DNA of 64,000 bases from a virus. Every line of letters starts with the position of its first letter. Within the stretch, counting starts at the first letter, position 1. The notes beneath the pieces are model-generated. The model was not told the origin of the DNA, did not search any database, and worked only from the letters and a program-made list of their open reading frames with translations. The stretch is from positions 3,285 through 67,284 of IMG/VR virus record IMGVR_UViG_3300008113_004357; one strand, written 5' to 3'. A program made the translations under genes and the position numbers. Below are positions 2,183-40,399 of the stretch, piece by piece.

Positions 2183-2193
2183 GTCTGTATAAT
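2165..2193 (+). promoter_or_regulatory. Sigma70-like promoter (TTGCAT-17-TATAAT) with an embedded late-type TAAATA, upstream of folE
   Basis: TTGCAT 2165-2170, 17-nt spacer containing TAAATA (2176-2181), TATAAT 2188-2193. Confidence 0.6.
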
Positions 2194-2234
2194 AACGCAT
2201 AGACATCCACGTCTATAACTCGGAGAAAACTATA

Positions 2235-3071: not shown

Positions 3072-3076
3072 CTACT

Positions 3077-3490: not shown

Positions 3491-3492
3491 CA

Positions 3493-4419: not shown

Positions 4420-4757
4420 TAGCTCAAGAGCCAGCAAAAGGTGTATTGCTAGTAAGTGAATGGGGTTCTAGCAAAATGTACAAAGCCGTATGTGAGTGCG
4501 GCGACAACGATTGTACTCACACTATAGATGTTGAGGCAGAAGATACTGGCGTTACTGTAACCATTTACACAACTACTAGAACCAATTTTTGGAGTAAGTC
4601 ACGTTGGAGTCATATTTGGCAATTGCTAACCAAAGGACATACTAATTTTGAAACTTGTATTATGATGAATAAACAGGTTGCTCTTAACTATGCTAATGTG
4701 TTACAATTAGCAGTAAAGGACGTAGAAGAATTTAGGAACAAGCATGGAAAAAATTAA
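4416..4757 (+). CDS. Hypothetical phage protein, possibly metal-binding
   Basis: GGAG SD; CECGDNDCTH motif. Confidence 0.7.
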   Translation: MIAQEPAKGVLLVSEWGSSKMYKAVCECGDNDCTHTIDVEAEDTGVTVTIYTTTRTNFWSKSRWSHIWQLLTKGHTNFETCIMMNKQVALNYANVLQLAVKDVEEFRNKHGKN

Positions 4758-8555: not shown

Positions 8556-9647
8556 ATGAGCGAAATTAGTTCACGTACCGTTGGCCCAAAGGCCGCTAAA
8601 AAGAGTCTGCGCCGTGCCTTTAAAGCCAATCGTCCGTTGTTCCTTTGGGGGCCTCCGGGTATTGGCAAGTCAGATATTGTCAAACAAATGGGCGAGGAAC
8701 TCAACGCTCATGTTATTGATATCCGTTTGAGTCTTTGGGAACCCACTGACATCAAAGGTATTCCGTATTTTGATGCCAATCAAAGCAAGATGCTTTGGGC
8801 TCCTCCTATTGAATTGCCTGATGCCGAAATGGCAGCAAAGCATAACAAGATCATCTTGTTCATGGACGAAATGAACTCTGCGGCTCCTGCTGTACAGGCA
8901 GCGGCTTATCAGTTGGTTTTGAATCGTCGTGTTGGTACTTACAAGTTGCCAGACAATGTACTCATTGTTGCTGCCGGTAACCGTGAAACTGACAAGGGCG
9001 TTACTTATCGTATGCCTGCTCCGTTGGCTAACCGTTTCGTTCACTTGGAAATGAAAGTGGATTGGGAAGACTACTTTACTTGGGCTACTGAGAACCGTAT
9101 CCATAAAGACGTTGTAGGCTTTTTGACCTTCAGCAAGAAAGACTTGTACGACTTTGATCCAAAGGCCGCTAGTCGTGCATTTGCTACTCCCCGCTCTTGG
9201 ACTTTTGTGTCTGAGCTGTTGTTTGACGATGATGAGGATGTTGGCACGTTAACTGATCTGGTTGCAGGTGCAGTTGGTGAAGGTCTTGCTGTTAAGTTTA
9301 TGGCTCATCGCAAGATTGCGTCTAAACTTCCTGATCCTACAGACATCCTTAAGGGCAAAGTTAAGAAGATGGACACTAAAGAAATCAGTGCCATGTACTC
9401 TTTGACTGTGTCATTGTGCTATGAGCTCAAAGATGCCGCTGACAAGAATGTCAAAGATTGGAACGATCAGGTTAACTGCTTCTTCGAATTTATGATGAAT
9501 AATTTTGAAACTGAATTGGTTGTTATGGGTACTAAACTTGCTCTTACCCAATATCAATTGCCGCTGGATCCAGACGAGATCAAATGCTTTGATGACTTCC
9601 ATGCCAAATACGGTCGCTTCATTGCTGCCGCTACTGAGAAGCGTTAA
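8556..9647 (+). CDS. MoxR/AAA_5-type AAA+ ATPase
   Basis: Walker A GPPGIGKS, Walker B LFMDEMN, AAGNR, PLANRF, TPRSW. Confidence 0.92.
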   Translation: MSEISSRTVGPKAAKKSLRRAFKANRPLFLWGPPGIGKSDIVKQMGEELNAHVIDIRLSLWEPTDIKGIPYFDANQSKMLWAPPIELPDAEMAAKHNKIILFMDEMNSAAPAVQAAAYQLVLNRRVGTYKLPDNVLIVAAGNRETDKGVTYRMPAPLANRFVHLEMKVDWEDYFTWATENRIHKDVVGFLTFSKKDLYDFDPKAASRAFATPRSWTFVSELLFDDDEDVGTLTDLVAGAVGEGLAVKFMAHRKIASKLPDPTDILKGKVKKMDTKEISAMYSLTVSLCYELKDAADKNVKDWNDQVNCFFEFMMNNFETELVVMGTKLALTQYQLPLDPDEIKCFDDFHAKYGRFIAAATEKR

Positions 9648-9664
9648 TTTGGTTGTAGCACCAT

Positions 9665-9693
9665 TTGACAGGGTCTTCGGACCCTGTTATAAT
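9665..9693 (+). promoter_or_regulatory. Consensus sigma70 promoter whose spacer is a cUUCGg hairpin
   Basis: TTGACA 9665-9670, TATAAT 9688-9693, 17-nt spacer; ACAGGGTC-TTCG-GACCCTGT at 9668-9687. Confidence 0.85.
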
Positions 9694-9719
9694 ATATACT
9701 ATATAAACAGGAGCAAATT

Positions 9720-10889
9720 ATGACTCAACTAGATCCAGTCATCGACAAAATTGTAGTAGCCCGTGTTGGACTACTTCTTCGTCATCCATTTTTTGGCAAC
9801 ATGGCTACTCGTCTTAAGATTGAGGAAGCTAGCGATTGGTGCATGACTGCCGCCACAGACGGGCGTCACTTGTATTTTAATCGTGAGTTTTTTGAAAAGA
9901 TGAGTGTTAAAGAAGTTGAGTTTGTTGTAGCTCACGAAATCTTACACAATGTATTTGAACACATGTTAAGGGTTGAAGGTCGCGATCCACGTATTTGGAA
10001 TGCCGCGGCAGACTTTAGCGTTAACGGTACTCTTGTTCGTGATCGAATTGGCGACAGTCCTAAAGGCATTAAAATTTTCCACGATGCTAAACACTACGGC
10101 AAAAGCACTGAACAAATCTATGACGAAATTTTTAACGACATGGATGAGCAAGAACTTGCCGCATTGGGCCAACTACTAGACGAACACATTGACTGGGAAA
10201 AGGACGGCAAAGATGGACGTCCTCAGTACAGCAAAGATGAACTTAAAAAGATTCGTGATGAGATCAAAGAACAGATGATGCAGGCTGCTCAGGCTGCGGG
10301 TGCGGGAAATACGCCTGCTGAGATCCAGCGTATGATCCGTGAACTCACTGAGCCCAAGATGAACTGGCGTGAAATTCTGCGTCAGCAAATTCAAAGTACT
10401 ATTAAAAACGATTACACCTTTATGCGTCCTAATCGTAAGGCATGGCATATGAATGCTATTTTGCCAGGTACTAACTTTGATGAGACCATTGATATTTGTA
10501 TTGCTATTGACATGTCAGGCTCTATCGGAGACGACCAGGCTAAAGATTTTATTTCAGAAATCAAAGGCATTATGGATGAATACAAAGACTATAAGATTAA
10601 ATTATGGTGCTTTGATACCAAAGTCTATAACGAGGCTGACTTCGATGGCTACGGTGATGACATTATGGAATACGAAGTAATGGGCGGTGGTGGCACTGAG
10701 TTTGATGCCAACTGGGAATACATGAAAGAACACGATATTAACCCTAAAAAGTTTATCATGTTTACAGACGGTTACCCTTGGGGTTCATGGGGTGATGAGA
10801 ACTACTGTGATACAGTATTCATTATCCACGGCAACGATAAAATTGTTCCGCCATTTGGTGCTTATGCTTATTACGAGTCAAAGAATTAA
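9720..10889 (+). CDS. Putative metallopeptidase (HEXXH) plus vWA domain protein (DUF2201-like), partner of the MoxR ATPase
   Basis: TAATDG, AHEILH, WN.AAD, MIDAS motif IDMSGS, GGGGTEF, FTDGY. Confidence 0.88.
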   Translation: MTQLDPVIDKIVVARVGLLLRHPFFGNMATRLKIEEASDWCMTAATDGRHLYFNREFFEKMSVKEVEFVVAHEILHNVFEHMLRVEGRDPRIWNAAADFSVNGTLVRDRIGDSPKGIKIFHDAKHYGKSTEQIYDEIFNDMDEQELAALGQLLDEHIDWEKDGKDGRPQYSKDELKKIRDEIKEQMMQAAQAAGAGNTPAEIQRMIRELTEPKMNWREILRQQIQSTIKNDYTFMRPNRKAWHMNAILPGTNFDETIDICIAIDMSGSIGDDQAKDFISEIKGIMDEYKDYKIKLWCFDTKVYNEADFDGYGDDIMEYEVMGGGGTEFDANWEYMKEHDINPKKFIMFTDGYPWGSWGDENYCDTVFIIHGNDKIVPPFGAYAYYESKN

Positions 10890-12323: not shown

Positions 12324-12633
12324 TGGAAGAACATTACCCAAAGATGCAATAGACAAATGGCCAGAAGTATTTGGTGAGATTACGTGTAACGTAGTTCCAC
12401 TAACGTACTTACACACCATAACTATTACATTTAAAAACGCAAAAGTTTGGGAAATACGAGCTAATAAAATTATGACTGATGATTGGGATTCTTTTGAATC
12501 CCATATCAAAGAAGTAATTAAAGAATACGAATCAAATATTGAAAGTATAGATTTTCAGCTCGACACAGACAGAATTAAAAAAGACATTACTAAACACACT
12601 AAACGTTTTTTAGATAAAAGAAAATTAAAATGA
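12316..12633 (+). CDS. Hypothetical phage protein
   Basis: Same frame as ORF 12196..12633; GTG at 12316 avoids a long overlap. Confidence 0.6.
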   Translation: MVNGRTLPKDAIDKWPEVFGEITCNVVPLTYLHTITITFKNAKVWEIRANKIMTDDWDSFESHIKEVIKEYESNIESIDFQLDTDRIKKDITKHTKRFLDKRKLK

Positions 12634-13310
12634 AAGTTAAGTTAGTTTCTTATAGCCAACCTACAGAAGAATTTCGTCAACAAAACATAGACGATGCACT
12701 AGATCTAGTAGCTTACTGCGCTCGTGTAAGTAACCCTGCTAATCAGTTCAATACAGAAACTAGCGAAAAGCTAATCAAGTATTTGATCAAGCATCAACAT
12801 TGGAGTCCTCTCGAGATGGTTAGTGCTTGTATAGAGATCACTACTACTAGAGATATTGCAAGACAAATCCTACGCCATCGTAGCTTTAGCTTTCAAGAGT
12901 TTAGTCAACGCTATGCTGATCCAACCGCAGAACTAGATGAAGCTTTTGTACTGCGTGAAGCACGATTCCAAGATACAAAGAATCGTCAAAATAGTGTAGA
13001 ATTTGACATGAACGACGAGCAACAAAAACTTCTTGCCTATGAATGGGAACGTGCTCAGAAGCGTGTACTATTTTCAGTTAAACAAGAGTATTCTTGGGCT
13101 ATTAAAAACGGTATTGCCAAAGAACAAGCTCGTGCTGTTCTACCAGAAGGCCTTACTGTTAGTCGTATGTATATGAACGGTACTATTCGTAGTTGGATTC
13201 ATTACATTGAACTTCGTAGTGCCAATGGAACACAAAAAGAGCATATGGATATTGCTCGTGCCTGTGGTCAAGTTATTGCAGAAGTATTTCCGCTGTCTAA
13301 ATCATTGTAA
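12630..13310 (+). CDS. thyX: Flavin-dependent thymidylate synthase
   Basis: ARVS, HWSPLE, signature RHRSFSFQEFSQRY, KEQARAVLP, TQKEH. Confidence 0.96.
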   Translation: MKVKLVSYSQPTEEFRQQNIDDALDLVAYCARVSNPANQFNTETSEKLIKYLIKHQHWSPLEMVSACIEITTTRDIARQILRHRSFSFQEFSQRYADPTAELDEAFVLREARFQDTKNRQNSVEFDMNDEQQKLLAYEWERAQKRVLFSVKQEYSWAIKNGIAKEQARAVLPEGLTVSRMYMNGTIRSWIHYIELRSANGTQKEHMDIARACGQVIAEVFPLSKSL

Positions 13311-14200
13311 TGGAGAACATTATCTGATTTCCTTGTTATATTGAAATCAAATGTTTTAAACCACTTACTTTGAATAGCTGTTAACGGTTCATCATCTATA
13401 GGGAGCTCATGCTTAATGAGATTCCCTATTTTTTTGGCCAGTGCTAGTGGGTCTTCATTTTTAACTTTATCATAAAAGAAAGTATTGAGATAATCAAAGT
13501 CTCGAACATTAATAAAATCCCAATCAGTAAAATGTGTCATGTAACAACCCTGACGAGCTCCTAGTATACTCCAAATGCCGTTTGATACATCTGCGCCTAC
13601 CATTGACCAAATTCCTAATCGTTGGTAGTTACCTGGCCATACATCTTTTAATTGATTAACTCGTTGACCCTGTTCAAGTGACATCTTGACGCCTTCACGA
13701 AAGCCAGCTCTCCATGCTTGTAGTGGACTGCCGTTATTATGTATTTGACTAAAGGCTTTGTCTAAAGGCAAATATTCTAAATCCCAGCAAAAGTCTATTT
13801 GGCTTTTTACATTGTCATTAGGAGCAGCTTCATGTGTTTGCATGTTAAGGACAACGTGCTTCGGCCAGCATTTAATGCCGCCATTGCCGTACATAAGTCC
13901 GTTGATAATATTATAACTAGGCCAACTTACTACACAATTATCAAAATTAACATCTTCAGGTACTTCAATTACTTGATTAAGAAACTTTCCTGTAAGTACA
14001 TTGTCACCGTCAATGGTGACAAATCTGTTTGTTTCAGATAAGTTTGCGGCAGCTTTATGAGCAGCATCACTGCCTTTAACACCGTGAACACGTTTTGCCC
14101 AAGGTATCTTTGAACAAAGATCTGCATAGTTACGATCAGCATCTGGCTCATCGTAACTGATATAGATTACATCATATTCACTTACTGTTATTTTTTTCAT
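13268..14200 (-). CDS. Putative glycosyltransferase-like protein (family A, paralog 1)
   Basis: YISYDEPDAD.NY, RVHGVKGSDAAH, DxD motif TIDGDN, YGNGG, AWRAGFREG. Confidence 0.65.
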   Translation of the reverse strand: MKKITVSEYDVIYISYDEPDADRNYADLCSKIPWAKRVHGVKGSDAAHKAAANLSETNRFVTIDGDNVLTGKFLNQVIEVPEDVNFDNCVVSWPSYNIINGLMYGNGGIKCWPKHVVLNMQTHEAAPNDNVKSQIDFCWDLEYLPLDKAFSQIHNNGSPLQAWRAGFREGVKMSLEQGQRVNQLKDVWPGNYQRLGIWSMVGADVSNGIWSILGARQGCYMTHFTDWDFINVRDFDYLNTFFYDKVKNEDPLALAKKIGNLIKHELPIDDEPLTAIQSKWFKTFDFNITRKSDNVLHYNDLDSGNTSAIT

Positions 14201-17200
14201 TTAAGAATTGCTCGTATAACCAATCAAAGTCGTTGATCTTAAATAAGTTGTCAGGATTTTCTGTGGCAAACTTACGTCCGGCGAGTGCGCCTTTTATGGC
14301 AAATTCACCGTAGGGTTTATCTGCTCCTTGTGTACACCACACATTTAGACGTTCTTCTGTTTCACTATCTACTTGACGATCAATAGTTTTACCTGCTAGT
14401 TTAGCACATTCACGGAACGCTGACTTCCATGTTGAAAATTCATCAGTGTTAAAGGAAGTAACGTTACTGACAACTTGTACTGGTTTAAATTTATCGCTGA
14501 TGCTAGTTGTCATATCAGGACGAGTTACATCCATACTCAATGTAAGTTGACGAGGTAACAGTTTAACACCACCATAACCGTAGACTAGATTATTAACAGG
14601 GTTTTGACTGCGCCATACATGAACTGTATCTCTTTCCCATACAGGTATTTCATAATCAAACTTGAAGTCATCAACTACAACTGCGTCACCATCAACTACC
14701 CAGAAGTTATCTGTATCTGCCTGTTCGGCTGCTTTGATGTGAGCTTGATGAATGCCTTTAACTCCGTGTACACGTTTGACCCTTGGATACAGCGTTTTAA
14801 CTCTGTCAAAGTTTTCATCAGCATTACTTTCGTTATAACTAATAAACACAATGTCATATGGTTTAACTTTACTAGCTGTAATATTCCATTCTTTACGCTC
14901 AACTAGATAACGGAAAGTAATTTCCTTTTCACTTACAGGGGCATGTTTACTCATCAGGTTAATACCATTATAGTTTTCTTCGCCTCTAAATAAGTGTTTA
15001 AAACTGTGATTCATATTTCTATCATAGGTATTATGATGACTGAAATAAGTGTCAAATGTAAATGTATCTAATACTTGAACTTCTTTTGGTACTACCCAGA
15101 ACATGTCTGTAGTAGACTCTTCAAGAGCAACTAGATAATCTCTATAAGTGCTTACTGTAAACTTATCAAATTGTTTTGGATTACTTGCTATTGTTTCAAT
15201 TTCTTTTTTCTCTATAAAGAATCTTGTTTTAAATTCTCTTTCAGAGATTTGTTCTTCTTTTGAAAATAAACAAATGCCGTCCCAATGTTCACCATTCTTA
15301 AAAATATGTGTAACATGTTGATTGTAACGAGGAACATAATAATCAAAGTTAAAATCTTCAACAACTTCTACATCTGGCCAGACGCACCAGAACATGTTAG
15401 ACTCAGATAGTTTACAAGCTTGTTCGTAGTCCTTGTATGTTGAAATATTAAATTTATCAAACATTTTAGGCGTGCTAGCAACTTCGTCCCATTCCTTACG
15501 ATCTGAAATGTGTCTAAATTTAAATTCTTTTTCAGAAATTAATTTTTTCTTGCTGGCAAGAATGACACCGTCATATGTGTCTCCGTTGAGGAACATATGA
15601 TTTTCTTCTCTTTCGTAGCTGTTGTGGTAGCTGAAGTAAACATCAAACTTAAATTCATCAGATACAATTACGTCACTAGGAACTATCCAGAATAGATCAG
15701 TATCTGATTTTTCAACTGCATCCATGTATTCATTGTAGCTGTCAATGTAAAATATATCGTATTTCTTTGGATAACTTGCGACTAATTCAACTATTATTTC
15801 TTTATCAGCAAAGAATCTATATCTAAATTCTTTTTCAGAAACAAGTACTTCGGTTGAAAATAAACAAATACCGTCATAATGTTTGCTATTCTTAAACACA
15901 TGAGTTAAGTGTTGATTATAACGAGGCACATAGTAATCAAAGTCAAAATCTTCAACAACTTCTACATCATGCCATACACACCAGAACATCTTTGATGTTG
16001 AATTTTTTACAGCATTAAGATAATCGTCATAGGTTTTTATATTAAAGAATCTACTAAATTCTTTTGGTCTACTTGCAAGAACTTCCCACTCTTTTCTGTC
16101 GCTTAAAAATCTATATTTGAATTCTTTTTCGCTTATGGATTTAAACTTACTGGCAAGTATAATTCCGTCATATGTATCTCCGTTGAGGAACATATGATTT
16201 TCTTCTCGTTCGTAGCTGTTGTGATAACTGAAATAAAGATCAAACTTAAATTCTTCAGCAGTAATAACATCGCTAGGAACTATCCAGAATAGATCAGTAT
16301 TTGAGTTCTCAACTGCATCAATGTATTCATTGTAGCTGTCAATGTAAAATATATCGTATTTCTTTGGATAACTTGCTAGGTAGTCAATTTCTTTCTTTTC
16401 TGTAAAGAATCTGTACTTGAATTCTTTTTCGCTTACCTGTGAAGTTTTGCTGAATAAACAAATACCATCAAAATGATCTCCGTTCTTAAAAACGTGTGTA
16501 ATGTGTTGATTGTATCGAGGTACATAGTAATCAAAGTCAAAATCTTCTACAACGTCTACATCATGCCATATGCACCAAAACATATTGCTTTTAGATTCTT
16601 TGCAAGCATTAAGATACTGTTCATACGTTTTAATATAAAATTTATCAAACTCTTGTGGTATACTTACAAGTGTATCCCATTCTTTTCTTTCATTTAAGAA
16701 TCTATATCTAAATTCTTTTTCACTTATAGGTCTAAACTTACTGGCAAGAATAACACCGTCATATGTATCTCCGTTAAGGAACATATGATTTTCTTGTCGA
16801 CTATAGGTGTCATGGTGGCTAAAATAAAGATCAAACTTGTAGTCATTAACTACTGTAACGTCACTAGGTATTAACCAGAGCAAGTCTGTAATAGAAGATT
16901 GAACAGCATTTAAATATTCATCGTATGTGTTAACATAAAATATATCATAATTTTTAGGATAGCTGATAGTATAGTCAACTTCTTTTTTGTCAGTAAAGAA
17001 TCTGTACTTAAATTCTTTTTCACTTACTTTAGTGTGCTTACTAAACAGACAAACACCGTCATAGTACTCGCCGTTTTTAAAAATATGAGTAATATGTTGA
17101 TTATAACGAGGAACATAATATTCAAAGTCAAAATCTTCTACAACATCAATGTCGGGCCATATTGCCCAGAACATATCAGTTGTTGACTGTTCACAGGCTG

Positions 17201-18788
17201 TGAGATATTCTTCAAAAGAACTTATATTAAAAATTTCAAACTTAACCGGCGTACTTACTAATAACTCTTCTTCTTTTTTCTCAATGACAAATTTATTATC
17301 AAATTCCTTTTTAGAAATTTCTAAAGATTTTGGAGTTAATAATACTCCGTCATAGAAATCACCGTTAAGAAAAGCATGATGTACAGATCTATCAAAGACA
17401 TTGTCATGAGTATAATAAACATCAAATTTAAAATCATCTTTGAGATTAATACCGGAAGGTATAATATAAAACAGTTCTGTTCTTGATTTTGATTTAGCTT
17501 CTAAATATTGCTCGTAAGAATCAACATAAAATTTATCGTACTGGCAGGGAACACTGGCTAAAAGATCCCATTCTTTACGCTCGACAATATATCTATGTTC
17601 TATTTCTTTGGCGCTAACTGGCTTGTACTTACTTAATAAGAAGATACCGTTATATAATTTGTCATTATTAACTAGGTGTACAAATGCGTGATTTTCTTGT
17701 CGTTCGTAGGCATTATGATATGTAATGTATAGATCAAATTTAAAATCATCGACTACTTTTAAGTTAGGACTAGTCATCCAAAACAAATCTGTAGTCGACT
17801 GCTTTACTGCTTCTAAATATTGATCATACGTTTCTATTTCAAAAATATCGTATGATTTTGGAACGCTGGCAACATAATCAACTTCTTTTTTGTCAGTGAA
17901 GAATCTATATTTAAATTCTTTTTCAGTTACTTTGTTGTGTTTACTAAACAGACAAAGTCCATCATAATATTCTCCATTTTTAAATACATGGGTAACATTC
18001 TGATTATAACGAGGTGCATAGTAATCAAAAGTAAAATCTTCTAAAAGTTCTATGTCATACCATATTGCCCAGAACATATTTGTTGTTGAATTTTCGCAGG
18101 CAGCAAGATAATCGTCGTAGGTTTTTATATTAAACTTTTCAAACTCTTTAGGACGACTTGCAAGAATTTCCCATTCTTTTTTGTCGCTTAAGAATCTATA
18201 TCTAAATTCTTTTTCACTTATAGGTTTAAATTTTGATGCTAAAATGATTCCGTCATATGTATCTCCGTTAAGGAACATATGATTTTCTTGTCTCTCATAA
18301 CTATTATGATGACTAAAATACAGATCAAATTTAAATTCTTCAACGACTGTAACATCGCTAGGAACTATCCAAAACAAATCAGTGGTTGCATTTTCCAGTG
18401 CGTTGATATATTCTTCATAGGTATCTATGTAAAAAATATCGTACTGTTTAGGAATACTTGCTACTAAATCAATTTCTTTTTTATCAGTAAAGAATCTATA
18501 TTTGATTTCTTTATCGCTAATATACTTGTGGCGGGGGACCAAAGACAATCCGTCAAAGTATTCGTTATTTTTAAAAATATGCACATAGTCTTCGTCCCAT
18601 TTAGGGATTGAATAAGAAGAAAAATCAAAATCGTCTTTTAGTTCTATGTCGTCCCACACTGTCCAGAACATAGAAGTAAGAGCTTTTGATTTAGCTTCGT
18701 CGAAGTTTTTGGCTTTTTTAGCAAACGGATATTTTGATTTAATGACTTTCCAATTTGGATTATTTCCAATAACAAAAATATCGTACAT
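14178..18788 (-). CDS. 1536-aa protein: 13 degenerate ~100-aa repeats plus a C-terminal family A glycosyltransferase-like domain
   Basis: Repeats YDIF...FW...D..V..F.FD.Y...H.F.NG..YDG..L.SK...SEKEF.YRF...KE...AS.PK; C-terminal RVHGVKGIHQAH, VVDGDA, YGYGG. Confidence 0.75.
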   Translation of the reverse strand: MYDIFVIGNNPNWKVIKSKYPFAKKAKNFDEAKSKALTSMFWTVWDDIELKDDFDFSSYSIPKWDEDYVHIFKNNEYFDGLSLVPRHKYISDKEIKYRFFTDKKEIDLVASIPKQYDIFYIDTYEEYINALENATTDLFWIVPSDVTVVEEFKFDLYFSHHNSYERQENHMFLNGDTYDGIILASKFKPISEKEFRYRFLSDKKEWEILASRPKEFEKFNIKTYDDYLAACENSTTNMFWAIWYDIELLEDFTFDYYAPRYNQNVTHVFKNGEYYDGLCLFSKHNKVTEKEFKYRFFTDKKEVDYVASVPKSYDIFEIETYDQYLEAVKQSTTDLFWMTSPNLKVVDDFKFDLYITYHNAYERQENHAFVHLVNNDKLYNGIFLLSKYKPVSAKEIEHRYIVERKEWDLLASVPCQYDKFYVDSYEQYLEAKSKSRTELFYIIPSGINLKDDFKFDVYYTHDNVFDRSVHHAFLNGDFYDGVLLTPKSLEISKKEFDNKFVIEKKEEELLVSTPVKFEIFNISSFEEYLTACEQSTTDMFWAIWPDIDVVEDFDFEYYVPRYNQHITHIFKNGEYYDGVCLFSKHTKVSEKEFKYRFFTDKKEVDYTISYPKNYDIFYVNTYDEYLNAVQSSITDLLWLIPSDVTVVNDYKFDLYFSHHDTYSRQENHMFLNGDTYDGVILASKFRPISEKEFRYRFLNERKEWDTLVSIPQEFDKFYIKTYEQYLNACKESKSNMFWCIWHDVDVVEDFDFDYYVPRYNQHITHVFKNGDHFDGICLFSKTSQVSEKEFKYRFFTEKKEIDYLASYPKKYDIFYIDSYNEYIDAVENSNTDLFWIVPSDVITAEEFKFDLYFSYHNSYEREENHMFLNGDTYDGIILASKFKSISEKEFKYRFLSDRKEWEVLASRPKEFSRFFNIKTYDDYLNAVKNSTSKMFWCVWHDVEVVEDFDFDYYVPRYNQHLTHVFKNSKHYDGICLFSTEVLVSEKEFRYRFFADKEIIVELVASYPKKYDIFYIDSYNEYMDAVEKSDTDLFWIVPSDVIVSDEFKFDVYFSYHNSYEREENHMFLNGDTYDGVILASKKKLISEKEFKFRHISDRKEWDEVASTPKMFDKFNISTYKDYEQACKLSESNMFWCVWPDVEVVEDFNFDYYVPRYNQHVTHIFKNGEHWDGICLFSKEEQISEREFKTRFFIEKKEIETIASNPKQFDKFTVSTYRDYLVALEESTTDMFWVVPKEVQVLDTFTFDTYFSHHNTYDRNMNHSFKHLFRGEENYNGINLMSKHAPVSEKEITFRYLVERKEWNITASKVKPYDIVFISYNESNADENFDRVKTLYPRVKRVHGVKGIHQAHIKAAEQADTDNFWVVDGDAVVVDDFKFDYEIPVWERDTVHVWRSQNPVNNLVYGYGGVKLLPRQLTLSMDVTRPDMTTSISDKFKPVQVVSNVTSFNTDEFSTWKSAFRECAKLAGKTIDRQVDSETEERLNVWCTQGADKPYGEFAIKGALAGRKFATENPDNLFKINDFDWLYEQFLNEKNNSK
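14860..18788 (-). repeat. Intragenic tandem repeat array, ~300-bp units with a ~600-bp A/B higher-order period
   Basis: For example, an identical 56-nt block occurs at 15724-15779 and 16321-16376 (offset 597). Confidence 0.9.
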
Positions 18789-18794
18789 ATCATT

Positions 18795-19526
18795 CTACCA
18801 TGTAATAAACTTATATAGCTCTTTTGCGTAGAGCTCGTGAGGTTTTTCTCCGTGATGCCAATATTTTGCTAAAGAATTCTGATGACCTTCTCGCTGGTAC
18901 TTGAGATAAAAAGAGTTATTTGAATTATCAAAATCCATATATCGAGAACCGTCTATTAACTTTAAGTAAAAATCAGTCCATCGATCTCGTTTGACAAAGT
19001 GCATGGTATTACACATGACATACTGAATACCCATTGACTTAAAATAAGACTGTAGTTGATGTACAAGATTTAAACTTTGAATTTCTAAATATGACTGATT
19101 TGATGCCATGAACTTTTGATAAAATGGTATTAATCTTTTTTCCCAATCTGAATTTCCATTAAAGCCAGGATTTAATCTATAGAATACATTATTAGTATTT
19201 CCAAACCAAGAATTAGTTTCAGATATAATATATTTTGTTCCTAATTCTGACGGTATCTCCATACGCACACTTTCGGTCCATGCTACGCAGACAAATAGGT
19301 CCATACTTTCAGGATCATATTCTCTATGCATCCATTCTAATATTGATCTAGCTATAGTAGGGTTAGCCGATCCTGGAGAAGAAATATTAATAGGTCTATA
19401 CCCTAGCATCTCAGCTAATATGTTTCCAAATGATTTGCTTCTATTAAAATCAGAATCTAATTGCCCATCTATCTCTGATCCCGATGCGTGGCTGCATCCA
19501 GAGATTAACATTACTTTCTCTTTCAT
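18795..19526 (-). CDS. SGNH/GDSL-like hydrolase or acyltransferase
   Basis: ISGCSH (block I), GSAN (block II), C-terminal WHHGEKPH. Confidence 0.65.
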   Translation of the reverse strand: MKEKVMLISGCSHASGSEIDGQLDSDFNRSKSFGNILAEMLGYRPINISSPGSANPTIARSILEWMHREYDPESMDLFVCVAWTESVRMEIPSELGTKYIISETNSWFGNTNNVFYRLNPGFNGNSDWEKRLIPFYQKFMASNQSYLEIQSLNLVHQLQSYFKSMGIQYVMCNTMHFVKRDRWTDFYLKLIDGSRYMDFDNSNNSFYLKYQREGHQNSLAKYWHHGEKPHELYAKELYKFITW

Positions 19527-21275: not shown

Positions 21276-22246
21276 GTGTGTTTCCTTTTTATATCAAGAG
21301 TAACGCAGTGAAATCCACCACCTAGTGTACGCTGTTGTCGCATAGGCAACATAGCACTATCAATATTATACTTTTCTAATTCTTTACGTAAATTATCTTG
21401 ATTTTCTTCTAATGCTACTAGATTAGGATTGACACTAAACAAGTTCATATTGATCCAAGTGCTGGCATTACAATAACCTGGATAGTGTCCAATATCTACA
21501 GGCTCAGGGCACCAAATATAATCCCAGCTTTGTAACGGTTTAGGCAATTGATCAATGCTCTTAATTCTACTAGGATTTAACAGCATTAGCCCTTCACGTA
21601 ATAGACAAATAGTACTGTCAAGATGCATATAACTATACACACCCTCGATAGTCCAAACTTTTTTATTTGGCATTAGTTCTTGAAGATATTCAGCACCTTT
21701 CTTGTTACCACTGTTGCTGACTAGATAATATAAGTTGTCGTTATCTCTTAATATATTAGCAGCATCAAATGCAGGTTCTGTTTCATTAAGTGCTAGTGTA
21801 TCAGGATCGCCGAGACAATTTAAATTGTATAAACTTTCATCGTATGAACACTTGGTAATCGTTACATAATTATTTTCAAAATGTTCTTGTAGGGCATAAT
21901 ATTCGTTATGTCTTGCTTTTAACGGCTGAGGAGTTGATAAGATTAGATTGTCATGTACTAACACTCCGTCTCTAGGACAATAGTTATAATAACTAGGAAC
22001 AACATTTTTATTTGGTCTCAATACAGACACATTACAAGATTTTAAAAACTCAACAAATTTTTCTAAATCTTCGTTGGCTTCGTTGATAACTTGTTGAGGA
22101 TAAGGTCCAACTAAAATTTCATCAATATTTTTTACATCTGCATAATTAACAGTTCGCAAACTAGTATCAATAGCAGGAATTTTAGCGTCATCTGCAACGC
22201 CAACTATAACTGTTTCTAATGGATCCCATTCGTTCTTACTTAACAT
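21272..22246 (-). CDS. Amidinotransferase (glycine / inosamine-phosphate amidinotransferase family)
   Basis: NEWDPLETVIVG, YCPRD, FDAAN, HLDST, GGGFHCVTLD (Asp-His-Cys triad). Confidence 0.9.
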   Translation of the reverse strand: MLSKNEWDPLETVIVGVADDAKIPAIDTSLRTVNYADVKNIDEILVGPYPQQVINEANEDLEKFVEFLKSCNVSVLRPNKNVVPSYYNYCPRDGVLVHDNLILSTPQPLKARHNEYYALQEHFENNYVTITKCSYDESLYNLNCLGDPDTLALNETEPAFDAANILRDNDNLYYLVSNSGNKKGAEYLQELMPNKKVWTIEGVYSYMHLDSTICLLREGLMLLNPSRIKSIDQLPKPLQSWDYIWCPEPVDIGHYPGYCNASTWINMNLFSVNPNLVALEENQDNLRKELEKYNIDSAMLPMRQQRTLGGGFHCVTLDIKRKHT

Positions 22247-22826
22247 TAAACACTCTCATTTTACTAATGTCAGGATAATCTTTATCACTCCAACATTTTG
22301 GTTTTAAATCTTTTATTTGTTCAAATCGTTGTATCCCTAACTCTGCAGATTCAGGTGTCATATAATAATGATATCCTAACAGATCAACATCTTGTTCTTT
22401 CCACAGTACGTCGGGCAATCTACCATCATAGCTCATTTTTTTTAAAATATTAGCAGCTTCTTGGTTGTCAGTTAAAATCATTCCGCCGCGGCCCAAATTA
22501 AGATGCTTTCTAAATTGAAAACTCAAACACATAAATGTGCCAGGAATATAACTATCTTTTTTCCATAAGACTGCTGCATCAATGATATTTGTATTACCAA
22601 TAAAATAATAGTCTTGCCATTGCGATTCAACAAACTCCCACGACAGTCCTAGTTTTTCAAATGTCATTGGTATAGATAGATATGTGTGTGCAGGGCAAGT
22701 TACTGACTTGGGAGTTGTGTAACGCAAGCAAAGTTCTACGGCATGAGTACAACTGTCTGTTGCAACTGCATACTCAGAACCAAAATAGTTTGCGATAATA
22801 TTTTCAAAGTCAGTTACTGGAGACAT
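22236..22826 (-). CDS. DegT/DnrJ/StrS-family PLP aminotransferase, compact form
   Basis: FE..IA.Y.G..YAVATDSCTHA, IIDAA, LSFQFRKHL..G.GGMILTD, GYHYYM; only 196 aa. Confidence 0.8.
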   Translation of the reverse strand: MSPVTDFENIIANYFGSEYAVATDSCTHAVELCLRYTTPKSVTCPAHTYLSIPMTFEKLGLSWEFVESQWQDYYFIGNTNIIDAAVLWKKDSYIPGTFMCLSFQFRKHLNLGRGGMILTDNQEAANILKKMSYDGRLPDVLWKEQDVDLLGYHYYMTPESAELGIQRFEQIKDLKPKCWSDKDYPDISKMRVFNVK

Positions 22827-31607: not shown

Positions 31608-31609
31608 TG

Positions 31610-32848: not shown

Positions 32849-34220
32849 TGGCTATTTCGCAAAGTTTGTAAAAGCTTTCCATTTCTGGAAATGCTTGTAA
32901 AAAGTTAGTATCTCGTCTTTTATCCATGGCGCTAAACCAATTGAAAAAATCTTTTCGACCTTCAACTAATTTTTCCATAGTATAATTTGTTGACTCCATA
33001 TAATCGACTACACGTTTAAATTTTTCATATTCAACGCTGGTAAACTTATCGCTGGCATTATCGTCAACATTCTCTTCCATAAATTTAAGATGCTCGTGCA
33101 TATAGGGCATAAACTCTTGTTTTGGTAGTATGTTCATATCATATTGAATAGGATCTCTGAGATAGGGTGTGTCAAATCTTACGCGATGTTCTTTACGATC
33201 CTCGTACCATCCATATTGTTTACGCCATTCAAGAATTTTTTCTAATAAAGATTTAAATGTTGTTACACTTAAAATATTAAATGTAATCATAAAAGTTATC
33301 GGACTAGTAGTATTTGTAAGATATGTGTGAAAATTTTGTTCCCATAACGAAAGATCTAAACCTGTACGAATGTACTCAGCACGAGGACCCCATGTGTCCA
33401 TACTAGTAAACAATTTAAAATTTTTAATTTTATCGTTAACTTTTAAATTTTCAACTTCGGTAGATAATCGATCTACTAAACTGCTCTTGACACCAAGATT
33501 ACTGTTAACATTAAGTTCAAGCCAGGGCATTGGTTCTTTGTTAATTTTATCTAATAATCTCCACGTGCTTACGTGCATCAATGGCTCTCCGCCAGTAACA
33601 CGCATAATATTCAATGTCTTACGTAACTGAGGCCACCAACGCCAAAACGCATCTACATATGGATTATCTTCTTCTCGACTATACAGCTTCATCCAGTCAA
33701 TGTCGCAACGATGATTTTTAACTGTGGTCACTGGACCGTGTTCTTTAATCTCATTAAAGAATCTTGAACTGTATTTGGGATGGCAGTATCCGCATTTGAA
33801 ATTACATTCATTGCCAAAATTGATTTCAATATACTCAGGATTAATGTTTTGGTCCCAAGAGCCTTTGGCTGTTTGCTCGTAGCGTTCTTCCGTAAAAATA
33901 CTGGCATTGCGAATATGTCTATCGCTAATATAATCGGGACCCATTGCTTCGATGTTCCAGCAGTATTGACAACCTTCGGGCTTTTTGCCTTCTAGCATCA
34001 TTTTACGTTCTTGCTTCTTATGTTCAGTGTTGTGCAACGCACTGGGATTGTCAAATACTTCAATTAAAGGAATCTTATGAGGAGCAGGATGATAACAACT
34101 ATGTGTTTCTCCTGTTTGTAGATACATGGTCACGTGATGCCATTTGGCTAGACAAAATGTAGAGCTTACTTCATTCTCTACTTTAATCTTGATTGTTTTG
34201 ATCTTTTCTTGTTCATTCAT
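32832..34220 (-). CDS. Radical SAM protein with an N-terminal Cys/His cluster
   Basis: FCLAKW...HSCYHP...CQYCW, then CNFKCGYC and TGGEP. Confidence 0.9.
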   Translation of the reverse strand: MNEQEKIKTIKIKVENEVSSTFCLAKWHHVTMYLQTGETHSCYHPAPHKIPLIEVFDNPSALHNTEHKKQERKMMLEGKKPEGCQYCWNIEAMGPDYISDRHIRNASIFTEERYEQTAKGSWDQNINPEYIEINFGNECNFKCGYCHPKYSSRFFNEIKEHGPVTTVKNHRCDIDWMKLYSREEDNPYVDAFWRWWPQLRKTLNIMRVTGGEPLMHVSTWRLLDKINKEPMPWLELNVNSNLGVKSSLVDRLSTEVENLKVNDKIKNFKLFTSMDTWGPRAEYIRTGLDLSLWEQNFHTYLTNTTSPITFMITFNILSVTTFKSLLEKILEWRKQYGWYEDRKEHRVRFDTPYLRDPIQYDMNILPKQEFMPYMHEHLKFMEENVDDNASDKFTSVEYEKFKRVVDYMESTNYTMEKLVEGRKDFFNWFSAMDKRRDTNFLQAFPEMESFYKLCEIANEQYR

Positions 34221-35113
34221 TTGAAATAGTTTCTCAGTGTATCGTGCATTTTTTTATAGTAAATAGATCCATCAGCATCAAGGTCAGCAATTTCAATTCC
34301 GTGTGCTTGCTTGATTTCGTTACCGTAAAATTTAATTTTTTCTTCTGCATGATCAATAGTTTTATCTGACCATTGTTCTTTCCAATACTCAGTTAAGTAC
34401 TCAAAATCTCTTACGTTAGCGTACTCCCAATTTGTACAATTTGTAAGATAGCAGCCTTCTCTGGCGCCTAGCAGACTGTACAAACCATTATCAACATCAC
34501 GCCCAACAGAGCACCATGTAATTAATCTATAATAGTTTTCCCACCAAATTTGTTTTTTCATATCCGTAACTTTGGCACCTTGGTCTAGGCTCATCTTTAC
34601 ACCTTCACGAAAGCCCGCTCGCCATGCTTGAAATGGCGTAGCATTAGTAAAGGTAGTGCTATAATTGCCCCCAAACTGATGATACCTATGATCAAAACAA
34701 AACTCTACTAAACCTTTATGATCTGCAGGGTCTGAATTTTCATGGGTTTTCATTTCGTTGACAAATTTACGTGTCCACATTTTAAGGCCACCATTGCCAT
34801 ACATAAGATGATTGACATGTACACGACCAGCCCAGCTAAAAACATAGCTATCATCAAAACCTAGTTCGTCTAAATCAACAACTACTTGAAAAAATTTACT
34901 GTCAACAATATTGTCAGCATCAACAGTGACAAAATATTCTGTTTCACTTTTTGCAGCACAAGCTTTATGTGCGGCGTCGCTGCCTTTGACTCCGTGTACA
35001 CGTTTAGCCCATGGCACTTTCTTTAATAGGTCAGCATAATTTTTTTCAGCATTAGGTTCATCATAACTTAAAAATACAATGTCCTGATCAATGACTTTAA
35101 TTTTATTACTCAT
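34217..35113 (-). CDS. Putative glycosyltransferase-like protein (family A, paralog 3)
   Basis: FLSYDEPNAEKNY, RVHGVKGSDAAH, TVDADN, YGNGG, AWRAGFREGVKMSL. Confidence 0.65.
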   Translation of the reverse strand: MSNKIKVIDQDIVFLSYDEPNAEKNYADLLKKVPWAKRVHGVKGSDAAHKACAAKSETEYFVTVDADNIVDSKFFQVVVDLDELGFDDSYVFSWAGRVHVNHLMYGNGGLKMWTRKFVNEMKTHENSDPADHKGLVEFCFDHRYHQFGGNYSTTFTNATPFQAWRAGFREGVKMSLDQGAKVTDMKKQIWWENYYRLITWCSVGRDVDNGLYSLLGAREGCYLTNCTNWEYANVRDFEYLTEYWKEQWSDKTIDHAEEKIKFYGNEIKQAHGIEIADLDADGSIYYKKMHDTLRNYFK

Positions 35114-40377: not shown

Positions 40378-40399
40378 CTTTTAACCTCTTAATCTTATG

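What the first reader, a model, noticed from the sequence alone, without database searches (positions are those of the whole stretch)
14178..18788. 1536-aa protein made of 13 catalytically degenerate copies of part of its own C-terminal domain
Seen: repeat order B,A,B,A',A'',B,A,B,A,B,A,B,A', then an intact domain. Each repeat starts YDIF/FDKF like the terminal YDIVF. FWIVPSD (A) or FWxxWxD (B) stands where the terminal domain has FWVVDGD, so the DxD is lost. Repeats 9 and 11 share a 56-nt identical block, pointing to recent ~600-bp A+B duplications. Inference: an expandable array of pseudo-enzyme modules acting as a scaffold, multivalent sugar binder or glycan length ruler.
Basis: partly seen in the sequence, partly recalled or inferred. 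Interest (0 to 1): 0.75.

Follow-up and report, generated by a model that had tools for sequence, protein, structure and literature searches.

The report
Phage sugar-transferase on pseudo-enzyme stalk
An uncultured freshwater giant phage encodes a 1536-residue protein in which one intact sugar-transferase domain sits at the end of a chain of 13 shrunken, catalytically disabled copies of its own core, a length-variable design whose purpose is still untested.

Summary
The ORF (window 14178-18788, minus strand, 1536 aa) has 13 repeats of 97-114 aa in the order BABAABABABABA, then a 225-aa terminal domain T. Repeats match T by sequence (BLASTP E 4e-7 and 2e-4).

T is a GT-A glycosyltransferase-like fold (best Z 11.2) with an invariant DGD. 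Each repeat is a roughly 100-aa mini GT-A core matching the same solved chains (Z 5-6.5). In the window none of the 13 keeps the DxD.

The array is not decaying: dN/dS is 0.03-0.15, against 0.05 for T. It is not a one-off assembly: two other metagenome contigs give the same unit order.

Among 213 cleanly parsed relatives, repeat number runs from 0 to 17. The N-terminal cap, last repeat and T are conserved; the interior is reshuffled.

The gene lies in a radical-SAM and sugar-enzyme island beside tail-fibre genes of a RaK2/Atu_ph07-like jumbo phage.

Best reading: a soluble glycosyltransferase on a rigid, non-catalytic, length-tunable arm. Its function is unproven. The "recent duplication" inference is not supported: repeats are at most 80% identical in DNA.

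This scan has noted the same kind of protein on other DNA.

The parts
14178..18788 (-). Whole ORF, 1536 aa: 13 pseudo-GT-A repeats plus the catalytic-type terminal domain
18444..18785 (-). R1 (aa 2-115), the 'full' B-type N-terminal cap. It keeps the helix-1/strand-2 segment that the other repeats have lost, and is conserved (72-92% id) as the first unit in six full-length relatives
   Evidence: among relatives with an intact N-terminus and 2 or more repeats, 62 of 62 start with B
18144..18443 (-). R2 (aa 116-215), A type (FWIVPSD)
17853..18143 (-). R3 (aa 216-312), B type (FWAIWYD)
17541..17852 (-). R4 (aa 313-416), A4 subtype (FWMTSPN, HLVNN insertion)
17241..17540 (-). R5 (aa 417-516), A5 subtype (FYIIPSG)
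16950..17240 (-). R6 (aa 517-613), B type
16650..16949 (-). R7 (aa 614-713), A type
16359..16649 (-). R8 (aa 714-810), B type
16059..16358 (-). R9 (aa 811-910), A type
15762..16058 (-). R10 (aa 911-1009), B type
15462..15761 (-). R11 (aa 1010-1109), A type
15171..15461 (-). R12 (aa 1110-1206), B type
14856..15170 (-). R13 (aa 1207-1311), terminal A13 subtype. It is conserved as the last unit before T in relatives, and is predicted to pack on T
   Evidence: (pTM 0.88)
14181..14855 (-). T (aa 1312-1536): GT-A core (about aa 1312-1447) plus a C-terminal helical bundle. Conserved motifs are SYxE, KRVHGVKGIHxAH, DGD, VHVWRS, YGYGG, DMTTSIS and FREC
14685..14693 (-). DGD (aa 1366-1368), the DxD motif of T. 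Both Asp are invariant in 121-row and 23-row alignments
16321..16376 (-). 56-nt block (end of R8 / start of R9), identical to 15724-15779
15724..15779 (-). 56-nt block (end of R10 / start of R11), identical to 16321-16376
13268..14200 (-). T2: a 310-aa stand-alone paralogue of T (33% id, keeps SYxE, KRVHGVKG, DGD). Its start overlaps the array gene's end by 23 nt. A gene of this kind adjoins the array gene or its terminal-domain homologue in 19 of the 26 related loci, and it is fused to T in other phages
34217..35113 (-). T3: a 298-aa third paralogue of T (34% id, DAD), directly upstream of the radical SAM genes
18795..19526 (-). Upstream 243-aa gene, 6 nt (18789-18794) from the array gene. 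An ORF of the same length, 243 aa, sits at the same position in L013 and L015 (length and position only; no sequence comparison was run). Feature-based lead to DUF6071 only

Best explanation
The gene encodes a soluble glycosyltransferase of an uncatalogued GT-A (GT2-like, DxD) family.

Its single catalytic-type domain (T, aa 1312-1536) sits at the C-terminal end of a rigid chain of 13 miniaturised, non-catalytic copies of its own GT-A core. The chain has three parts:
- a conserved N-terminal cap (R1);
- a variable interior built from BA and BAA modules;
- a conserved last unit (R13) that packs against T.

I read the array as a structural arm. R13 plus T would form a two-lobed acceptor-binding head of the B3GLCT kind. 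The interior would be a stiff spacer whose length is tuned by gain and loss of whole modules. The cap would dock the arm to a partner.

The enzyme would work with its T2 and T3 paralogues and the neighbouring radical-SAM, NDP-sugar dehydrogenase and aminotransferase genes. Together they would build an unusual glycan late in infection, most likely on a phage-made target such as the fibres encoded just upstream.

Shown: anatomy, homology, fold, loss of motifs, purifying selection, copy-number variation, conserved genomic context.

Inferred: catalysis, rigidity (model confidence only), the docking and spacer role, and the target.
For: Anatomy and homology.

Fold of T. Model of aa 1207-1536: pLDDT 92.8, pTM 0.88. 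Foldseek gives 57 PDB matches at E <= 0.001, led by GT-A transferases (CgT, WrtF, pgant9, RmlT, SunS). VIA-align gives B4GALNT1 Z 11.2 (rmsd 2.7, 139 aligned), WrtF about 10, SpsA 9.1, STIV A197 9.5. DxD and SYxE are invariant. In two relatives the T domain itself reaches the Pfam GT2-type cut-offs (PF13641 27.4 vs 27 bits; PF00535 28.5 vs 23.3 bits).

Fold of the repeats. Model of aa 714-1109 (BABA): pLDDT 96.7, pTM 0.84. In an unbiased search of 48,161 chains, all 50 rows shown are GT-A-fold proteins. Each aligns one whole repeat (about 90-100 residues) to the same chains and ranges as T: B4GALNT1 Z 6.5, WrtF 6.2, A197 6.0, SpsA 5.6.

The repeats are non-catalytic but constrained. DxD occurs in 0 of 244 A units and 8 of 314 B units, against 169 of 213 T domains. 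dN/dS against the L015 orthologue, where computable (9 of 13 repeats), is 0.03-0.15, against 0.05 for T.

Conserved ends, variable interior. Relatives carry 0-17 repeats. Relatives whose T is 83-96% identical range from 774 to 1948 aa.

Partnering with T2. A T2-type gene (about 300-318 aa) adjoins the array gene or its terminal-domain homologue in 19 of the 26 related loci, on either side. T2-T fusion proteins exist.

Context. The window holds five radical SAM genes plus a B12-radical SAM gene, an NDP-sugar dehydrogenase, a DegT-type fragment and tail-fibre genes. All four relatives' loci scanned hold radical SAM genes. Two (L013, L031) also hold the NDP-sugar dehydrogenase and DegT-type fragment, and one (L033) a tail-collar fibre gene.

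Precedent. B3GLCT has an inactive extra GT-A domain, derived from the catalytic one, that is essential for acceptor binding (abstract of PMC13597200).
Against: No activity, donor, acceptor or localisation is known for any member. All source names seen are 'hypothetical', or stray auto-names.

The window's protein has no GT-family Pfam hit even at E <= 1; only five weak sub-threshold matches to unrelated families appeared. It has no NCBIfam hit. A profile of R13+T finds no PDB sequence at E <= 1.

For the repeat model, Foldseek found nothing at E <= 0.001. The VIA Z-scores of 5-6.5 are below the tool's own caution line of 8. The fold call for the repeats therefore rests on the concordance of hits and on sequence homology.

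T also matches IspD-type nucleotidyltransferases of the same fold at Z about 10, so a non-GT chemistry is not excluded.

Rigidity is only an AlphaFold confidence value, and the alignment was made largely of repeats. I had no coordinates, so no length, interface or pocket was measured.

Strongly conserved polar residues in every repeat (H, N, E, K, R) would also fit a binding site in each unit.

Nothing ties the enzyme to virion proteins rather than to the host envelope, which is the reading favoured for such islands in PMC7029224 (passages read).
Confidence: 0.42

Rival explanations
1. Multivalent acceptor binder. Each pseudo-GT-A unit keeps a vestigial pocket that binds one unit of a repetitive acceptor, either a polysaccharide or a fibre protein made of repeated domains. 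The array then gives avidity or processivity to the catalytic head. It is not a passive spacer.
For: Polar residues are invariant or nearly so across all 13 repeats: H69, N73, E93, K92, R97, K103, E104. Purifying selection is strong (dN/dS 0.03-0.15). In B3GLCT the inactive GT-A domain is essential for acceptor binding and keeps a vestigial active site (abstract of PMC13597200). A 4677-aa fibre-region protein with a CBM5/12 hit lies in the same gene block.
Against: The repeats lack every nucleotide-binding and metal-binding motif of T. No lectin or CBM family hit was found. The conserved polar residues could equally be inter-repeat contacts. No ligand test is possible with these tools.
Confidence: 0.22
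2. Virion structural protein. The chain of mini GT-A modules is itself a fibre or decoration of the particle, like Ig-domain arrays on other phages. T would be a glycan-binding or glycan-modifying tip used in host recognition.
For: The gene lies on the same strand and in the same block as the tail-fibre genes. Its length varies among close relatives, as is typical of host-recognition proteins. Predicted inter-repeat confidence is high (pTM 0.84). The only TATAAATA motif in the window sits upstream of the fibre gene that heads this minus-strand block.
Against: No PHROG structural family matches; the only two PHROG matches (E 1.5e-4 and 2e-3) are to families of unknown function. T keeps a full catalytic-type motif set that is also invariant in 225-aa stand-alone homologues and in two paralogues of the same island, which fits an enzyme better than an adhesin. 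About 20 kb of biosynthetic genes separate it from the fibres.
Confidence: 0.15
3. Glycan length ruler. The distance between the docked N-terminal cap and the catalytic head sets the length of the polymer that is built or capped. This would be functionally like the coiled-coil ruler of WbdD.
For: The repeat number is discrete and variable, 0-17. The ends are conserved and the interior variable. The array is predicted to be stiff. Rulers made of variable-length structural elements are known for O-antigen synthesis (search listing and abstract start of PMC5082667).
Against: No polymerase, terminator (kinase or methyltransferase of the WbdD type), ABC transporter or membrane anchor was found beside the gene. 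There is no coiled coil. The idea rests on analogy only.
Confidence: 0.1
4. Artefact or junk. The array is an assembly expansion of a short repeat, or a decaying duplication with no function.
For: Short-read assemblies break at the repeat junctions. Logan contigs end at the 56-nt blocks, and no single contig spans the gene. One related contig carries a frameshift (L011) and another a 44-aa in-frame deletion in R1 (L010).
Against: The units are 48-80% identical in DNA, so they are individually unique. Contigs from two other metagenomes give the same order, BABAABABABABAT. In 18 runs from 14 or more studies, half or more of the gene's sampled words are present. Of the four runs laid, two cover all 30 bins of the gene region and one 29, with no marked rise in depth over the array. 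The fourth run (X9) has no cover in six bins. No joint lies inside the repeat array. The frame is open for 1536 codons. dN/dS is 0.03-0.15.
Confidence: 0.02

Closest known systems
B3GLCT (beta-1,3-glucosyltransferase), a two-domain GT-A enzyme (PMC13597200; abstract and outline read)
   Same: It has a catalytic C-terminal GT-A domain preceded by an extra GT-A domain that arose from it by duplication. The extra domain has lost donor and metal binding and serves acceptor recognition. The commonest architecture in this phage family, one pseudo-unit plus T (109 of 213 parsed relatives), is the same plan. R13+T is predicted as one compact body (pTM 0.88).
   Different: B3GLCT has one full-size pseudo-domain. 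Here there are 13 (up to 17 in relatives), each shrunk to about 100 aa, of several subtypes, and variable in number. No sequence relation to B3GLCT or any PDB chain was detected. The acceptor is unknown.
GT2-type GT-A glycosyltransferases (SpsA, WrtF, SunS/ThuS, TarP/TarS, RmlT; Pfam PF00535/PF13641)
   Same: Same fold (Z 9-10). A SYNE-type motif follows strand 1 and DxD follows the central strand. Two relatives' T domains just pass the Pfam cut-offs.
   Different: The window's T has no Pfam or NCBIfam match. It ends in its own roughly 90-aa helical bundle, which the PDB matches hardly cover.
Host-recognition cluster islands of pelagimyophages and cyanomyophages (PMC7029224; passages read)
   Same: A variable island beside the tail fibres holds glycosyltransferases, UDP-glucose dehydrogenase and radical SAM cassettes in aquatic myophages.
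   Different: By its baseplate wedge, this phage is nearest to RaK2/K64-1/Atu_ph07-type jumbo phages (31-32% id). It is found in freshwater runs. In the passages I read, the paper does not describe this family or any repeat-array enzyme. It favours host O-chain modification as the role of the glycosyltransferases.
Multi-GT-domain viral and polymerising enzymes (PBCV-1 A064R, mimivirus R699, K4CP, PmHS2)
   Same: Several GT-A modules on one chain. They appear among the weak structural matches of the repeat model.
   Different: Those carry two or three active, full-size domains (recalled, not tested here). Here only one unit keeps the catalytic motifs.
WbdD coiled-coil ruler of O-antigen synthesis (PMC5082667; search listing and abstract start)
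   Same: A variable-length rigid element that sets a distance for a glycan-building enzyme. The analogy is functional only.
   Different: WbdD uses a coiled coil, not a domain array. Its partners (polymerase WbdA, membrane) are absent here. No evidence of chain-length control.

Membership tests
GT-A fold nucleotide-diphospho-sugar transferases (terminal domain T) | Single Rossmann-like alpha/beta/alpha core with a central mixed sheet | tested here: met
   Model pLDDT 92.8. VIA-align: B4GALNT1 Z 11.2, rmsd 2.7, 139 aligned; WrtF, SpsA, TarP and A197 at Z 9-10. Foldseek: 57 matches at E <= 0.001.
GT-A fold nucleotide-diphospho-sugar transferases (terminal domain T) | DxD metal and donor-binding motif after the central strand | tested here: met
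   D1366-G-D1368. Both Asp are invariant in 121 rows and 23 rows. T2 has DGD and T3 has DAD.
GT-A fold nucleotide-diphospho-sugar transferases (terminal domain T) | Glycosyl transfer from an NDP-sugar | not testable with these tools
   No assay is possible. IspD-type nucleotidyltransferases of the same fold score equally (Z about 10).
Pfam GT2 families (PF00535 Glycos_transf_2, PF13641 Glyco_tranf_2_3) | Score at or above the family's gathering cut-off | tested here: not met
   The window protein has no GT family hit at E <= 1. Two relatives' T domains reach 28.5 bits (cut-off 23.3) and 27.4 bits (cut-off 27). So T is kin of the clan, but the window's protein is not a scored member.
GT-A fold (each of the 13 repeats) | Same core fold as T | tested here: met
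   Sequence: E 4e-7 and 2e-4 to T. Model pLDDT 96.7. Of 48,161 chains, all 50 rows shown are GT-A-fold proteins, aligning 88-101 residues of one repeat at Z 4.5-6.5, apart from two rows (CHSY3-CHPF and K4CP) that span two repeats at rmsd above 12. They match the same chains and ranges as T. Caveat: Z is below 8, and Foldseek gave nothing at E <= 0.001.
GT-A fold (each of the 13 repeats) | DxD and donor-binding motifs | tested here: not met
   The first Asp is replaced by P, W or S in 13 of 13 repeats. SYxE and KRVHGVKG/AH are absent, and helix 1 and strand 2 are deleted in 12 of 13. In relatives, 0 of 244 A units and 8 of 314 B units keep DxD. These are pseudo-enzyme modules.
B3GLCT-type two-domain GT-A enzymes | Extra N-terminal GT-A domain derived from the catalytic one and inactive | tested here: met
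B3GLCT-type two-domain GT-A enzymes | Acceptor bound in the cleft between the inactive and active domains | not testable with these tools
   No coordinates or ligand were available. Only pTM 0.88 for R13+T.
B3GLCT-type two-domain GT-A enzymes | Sequence kinship with B3GLCT | tested here: not met
   A profile of R13+T finds 0 PDB sequences at E <= 1. The resemblance is of design, not of descent.
Fibre-adjacent glycan / radical-SAM islands of aquatic myophages (HRC type, PMC7029224) | Variable island next to tail-fibre genes with glycosyltransferases, sugar-nucleotide enzymes and radical SAM cassettes | tested here: met
   Window. All four relatives' loci scanned hold radical SAM genes; two also hold the NDP-sugar dehydrogenase and DegT-type fragment, and one a tail-collar fibre gene.
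WbdD-type molecular ruler | Extended coiled coil linking a chain terminator to a polymerase at the membrane | tested here: not met
   The array is alpha/beta domains. No kinase, methyltransferase terminator, polymerase or transporter lies nearby.

The most novel reading that the evidence does not exclude
The array is a length-coded molecular arm made of pseudo-enzyme domains. Module gain and loss (0-17 units, perhaps 0 to about 50 nm by a rough rule of about 3 nm per 100-aa domain, which is my estimate and not measured) would set where on a phage fibre, or how far from a docking site, the glycosyltransferase head acts. Repeat number would then be a heritable, rapidly evolving dial for the pattern or length of a phage-made glycan coat. 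This would be the first ruler or scaffold built from tandem dead copies of the enzyme's own catalytic fold.
Probability: 0.15. Interest if true: 0.85.

Novelty: new variant of a known kind. Interest (0 to 1): 0.6.

Why it matters
Pseudo-enzyme domains are usually single accessory lobes. Here a catalytic fold has been miniaturised and multiplied into a long, selected, copy-number-variable array.

The family is large. The terminal domain has 4818 relatives of 123-394 aa and 2457 of 395-2000 aa at E <= 0.001. Yet it has no Pfam or NCBIfam model. It matches only one of 50,697 GenBank phage records.

It sits in a recurrent radical-SAM and sugar island beside the tail fibres of abundant aquatic jumbo phages, whose product and target are unknown.

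Working out what the arm does could show how phages place glycans on themselves or on their hosts. It would also give a compact, about 100-aa, stackable alpha/beta module of practical interest for protein design.

Tried and rejected
- Tandem Repeats Finder found no array. The units are too diverged in DNA, so protein-level and seed-based repeat finding were used instead.
- Pfam and PHROGs on the whole protein gave only sub-threshold noise (Phosphonate-bd, DUF4198 and others). NCBIfam gave nothing for T, T2 or T3.
- phmmer of T, and a profile of R13+T, against PDB sequences gave nothing meaningful.
- Foldseek on the four-repeat model gave no match at E <= 0.001. The wide VIA search was used instead.
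- Complex prediction of T with T2 gave 'no answer' (score 0.00 against a mark of 0.32). This is neither support for nor evidence against binding.
- The annotated region of the only GenBank hit (Ralstonia phage RsoM2USA) lists only hypothetical proteins.
- Sigma-70 promoter and terminator scans around the gene were no richer than shuffles.
- A scan of this genome's earlier notes returned nothing.
- Three literature searches found no description of a tandem pseudo-GT-A array in phages (68, 2 and 0 papers held the terms). The library lacks most subscription journals.
- Logan contigs cannot prove the unit order across the 56-nt identical blocks, and no raw or long reads were offered. Two skips reported (13720>14753 and 14026>14124) lie outside the repeat array. 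One (13720>14753) has only 25 letters on its short side and the other stands in a single contig of one run. I read them as cross-matches between the T and T2 paralogues.
- Rejected: a nucleotidyltransferase reading of T as the first choice. T has DxD and a GT2-like SYNE motif, and by my reading of the printed sequence it lacks the glycine-rich N-terminal motif I recall for IspD-type enzymes. The motif is recalled; no pattern search was run.

Full report
WHAT IS THERE

The finding's coordinates hold one ORF on the minus strand, window 18788 down to 14178, 1536 codons, with no internal stop.

A motif scan and a MAFFT alignment cut it into 13 units of 97-114 aa. They start at aa 2, 116, 216, 313, 417, 517, 614, 714, 811, 911, 1010, 1110 and 1207. 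A 225-aa terminal domain T follows at aa 1312-1536.

All 13 units begin with a YDIF/FDKF-type strand.
- Four A units carry FWIVPSD or LWLIPSD; R4, R5 and R13 carry FWMTSPN, FYIIPSG and FWVVPKE.
- B units carry FWxxWxD.
- T carries FWVVDGD.

At DNA level the units are 48-80% identical. Tandem Repeats Finder therefore sees nothing. Seed-based repeat finding gives families with 291-300 and 591-597 nt spacing.

The 56-nt identical block between units 9 and 11 is real. It lies at window 16321-16376 and 15724-15779 and is the longest exact repeat in the gene.

HOMOLOGY OF REPEATS AND TERMINAL DOMAIN

R1 aligns to T at BLASTP E 4e-7 (30% over 94 aa). R9 aligns at E 2e-4.

R1 alone keeps the segment that in T forms helix 1 and strand 2. 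The other 12 units have lost it.

T-invariant motifs are absent from the repeats. These are SYxE after strand 1, KRVHGVKGIHxAH, and D1366-G-D1368.

STRUCTURE

A model of R13+T (aa 1207-1536, 121-row alignment) has pLDDT 92.8 and pTM 0.88.
- Foldseek against the PDB gives 57 matches at E <= 0.001. They are led by GT-A glycosyltransferases: CgT, WrtF, pgant9, RmlT and SunS.
- VIA-align places model residues 102-241 on B4GALNT1 (Z 11.2, rmsd 2.7, 139 aligned), WrtF (about 10), SpsA (9.1) and STIV A197 (9.5).
- It also places them on IspD-type nucleotidyltransferases of the same fold, at about Z 10.
- The last roughly 90 residues form a helical bundle that the PDB matches hardly cover.

A model of four units (aa 714-1109, BABA, 82-row alignment) has pLDDT 96.7 and pTM 0.84.
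- Foldseek finds nothing at E <= 0.001, though its weak rows are mostly GT-A enzymes.
- The Foldseek-independent search of 48,161 chains lists 50 rows, all GT-A-fold proteins.
- Each of these aligns one whole unit (model 1-97, 195-297 or 294-396; 88-101 residues) to the same chains and chain ranges that T matched, except two rows (CHSY3-CHPF and K4CP) that span two units at rmsd above 12. Examples are B4GALNT1 273-485 at Z 6.5, WrtF 4-193 at Z 6.2, A197 at Z 6.0 and SpsA 2-216 at Z 5.6.
- These Z values are under the tool's caution line of 8. I rely on their concordance with the sequence homology and with the parallel secondary-structure order.

So each unit is a stripped, roughly 100-aa GT-A core, not an arbitrary fragment.

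IS IT REAL AND SELECTED?

IMG/VR contigs from two other metagenomes (L010 and L011, 97-99% identical) give the same 13-unit order. L011 has a frameshift, and L010 has a 44-aa in-frame deletion in R1.

In 18 public runs of at least 14 studies, half or more of the gene's sampled words are present. All are labelled freshwater, lake or 'fungus' metagenomes.

Contigs of four such runs were laid on the gene. The long pieces shown lie on it without differences in three runs (X1, X3, X9); X8 shows a few.
- They break at the repeat junctions.
- No joint lies inside the repeat array.
- Depth over the array shows no marked rise. X1 and X8 cover all 30 bins, X3 29 and X9 24.
- No long read was available, so the order across the 56-nt blocks is supported but not proven.

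Against the 14-unit orthologue in L015, dN/dS of the repeats, where dS could be computed (9 of 13), is 0.03-0.15, and T gives 0.05. The dead copies are under purifying selection as strong as that on the live one.

VARIATION IN RELATIVES

The T family is very large and unnamed.
- 4818 proteins of 123-394 aa and 2457 of 395-2000 aa match at E <= 0.001.
- The nearest Atlas clusters are 95-100% viral and uncharacterised.
- The two best BFVD matches are 'uncharacterized protein, uncultured Caudovirales phage'.
- One of 50,697 GenBank phage records matches, the Ralstonia jumbo phage RsoM2USA, and only in its T domain.

The repeat profile finds 179 representative clusters among 1.84 billion proteins, with up to 16 matched stretches.

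| n | 0 | 1 | 2 | 3 | 4 | 5 | 6 | 7 | 10 | 11 | 12 | 13 | 14 | 15 | 16 | 17 |
|---|---|---|---|---|---|---|---|---|---|---|---|---|---|---|---|---|
| proteins | 19 | 109 | 22 | 15 | 15 | 6 | 9 | 5 | 1 | 1 | 1 | 2 | 2 | 3 | 2 | 1 |

. This sample is biased: it holds the best 120 rows of each of two searches plus the best 150 of the repeat profile. The other 174 proteins (176 with the window's own two entries) are fragments or other architectures and were left out.

Relatives whose T is 83-96% identical to the window's range from 774 to 1948 aa. Their unit orders differ, for example BABABABABABABAT, BAABAABAABABAT and BAABAAAAABABABAAAT.

Unit-by-unit comparison and a tree of 92 units from 7 proteins show six clades: cap B1, internal B, terminal A13 type, and the A2, A4 and A5 types.
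- The cap and the terminal A clades each hold at most one unit per protein. Six of the seven proteins have a cap unit and all seven a terminal A unit; P0133 lacks the cap.
- The window's internal units pair with positional partners in P0123.
- Other lineages show within-genome clusters at a period of three units, that is, amplified BAA modules.

So the array does expand and contract by whole modules. The window's own duplications are old, however: DNA identity is at most 80% and dS is near saturation. The 56-nt block is better read as local conversion or constraint.

CONTEXT

The window is part of a 67-kb IMG/VR virus record rated 19% complete.

Its baseplate wedge is 31-32% identical to those of Agrobacterium phage Atu_ph07 and the Klebsiella phages RaK2 and K64-1. 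It is therefore probably a jumbo myophage.

The gene ends a minus-strand block that starts with tail-fibre genes (38593-46092, and a 4677-aa ORF at 47416-61449). The block runs through:
- three N-terminal-twitch radical SAM genes, plus two more radical SAM genes;
- a B12-radical SAM gene;
- an NDP-sugar dehydrogenase;
- a short DegT-type ORF;
- many unknowns.

Two further full T paralogues lie in the block.
- T2 (13268-14200) overlaps the array gene's end by 23 nt.
- T3 (34217-35113) sits next to the radical SAM genes.
- Both keep the catalytic-type motifs.

A T2-type gene (about 300-318 aa) adjoins the array gene or its terminal-domain homologue in 19 of the 26 related loci, on either side. 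In other phages T2 and T are fused into one roughly 530-aa protein, P0186 for example. The Pfam GT2-type hits of those proteins fall on their T domain.

All four divergent loci scanned (L013, L021, L031, L033) carry radical SAM genes. L013 and L031 also carry the NDP-sugar dehydrogenase and DegT-type genes, and L033 a tail-collar gene.

Such islands were described for pelagimyophages and cyanomyophages. There the authors favour modification of the host O-chain (PMC7029224, passages read).

HOW IT PROBABLY WORKS

Shown:
- one catalytic-type GT-A domain;
- 13 constrained pseudo-copies;
- conserved ends and a variable interior;
- confident predicted packing between neighbouring units and between R13 and T;
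- a conserved partner paralogue;
- a sugar-tailoring neighbourhood.

Inferred: T transfers a sugar. [quoted passage not shown] The interior is a stiff spacer tuned by module number, and R1 docks the arm.

I put this at about 0.42. The rivals are a multivalent acceptor binder (0.22), a virion fibre or decoration (0.15), a glycan ruler (0.10) and an artefact (0.02).

I could not get model coordinates, so lengths and interfaces are unmeasured.

COMPARISON AND NOVELTY

- The fold and the DxD place T in the GT-A superfamily, near GT2. The window's protein is not a scored member of any Pfam or NCBIfam family.
- The design of an inactive duplicate of the catalytic domain is known from B3GLCT. That is a single, full-size domain with no detectable sequence kinship.
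- Three literature searches found no description of a long, copy-number-variable array of miniaturised pseudo-GT-A modules.
- I rate it a new variant of a known kind.
- Earlier notes of this scan describe the same type of protein and the same island on other genomes (e1-5879279, e1-5697561 and others). I reached the reading before seeing them, and they agree with it.

Noticed in passing
window 13268-14200 (-) and 34217-35113 (-); P0186, P0214: Two stand-alone paralogues of the terminal domain lie in the same island. In other phages the T2-type and T-type domains are fused into one roughly 530-aa protein, a Rosetta-stone hint that they act together.
   Followed up: partly
window 40400-40407 (-): TATAAATA, which I recall as the T4-type late-promoter motif, occurs once in 64 kb where shuffles give 11.3 +/- 3.3. 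It lies about 23 nt upstream of the fibre gene 38593-40377 that heads the minus-strand block containing the island.
   Followed up: no
window 29398-34220 (-) and 22810-25065 (-): Three paralogous N-terminal-twitch radical SAM genes (NF033640, E 1e-93 to 1e-111), a further radical SAM gene and a 751-aa B12-binding radical SAM gene. Radical SAM genes recur next to T-family genes in all four relatives' loci scanned.
   Followed up: partly
window 22236-22826 (-); L013:5979-6572; L031:7172-7759: A DegT/PseC-type aminotransferase ORF of only about 196 aa, matching only part of the 360-position profile. Relatives keep it at the same short length, so it is a conserved short form and not a fresh pseudogene.
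   Followed up: no
window 47416-61449 (-): A 4677-aa ORF between the baseplate wedge and the fibre genes. Its only hits are a CBM5/12 and an FG-GAP repeat.
   Followed up: no
window 1367-5616 (+): A second UDP-glucose-dehydrogenase-like gene, a GTP cyclohydrolase-like gene and a QueE-like radical SAM gene. The last two suggest 7-deazaguanine chemistry (recalled link). ThyX lies at 12630-13310.
   Followed up: no
L010:555-5033 and L011:3-4950: Near-identical copies from other metagenomes differ by a 44-aa in-frame deletion inside R1 (L010) and by a frameshift that splits the gene after unit 10 (L011). Whether these are natural variants or assembly errors is open.
   Followed up: partly
L019-L024, L029, L032 (for example L021:9998-13169) versus window 34217-35113: In another clade the array gene (755 aa, BBAAAT) follows the T-paralogue directly, ahead of the radical SAM genes. 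That is where the window has T3 alone. The array gene has therefore moved or been duplicated within the island.
   Followed up: partly
window 18795-19526 (-): The 243-aa gene just upstream of the array gene resembles DUF6071 clusters by language-model features (score 0.97-0.98; 30-40% of members carry the family). One cluster has 11% Lipase_GDSL. This is a lead only.
   Followed up: no
window 8556-10889 (+): A MoxR-type AAA ATPase next to a DUF2201 metallopeptidase/VWA protein. The DUF2201/VWA gene is also seen, cut by the locus end, in the relative L013.
   Followed up: no
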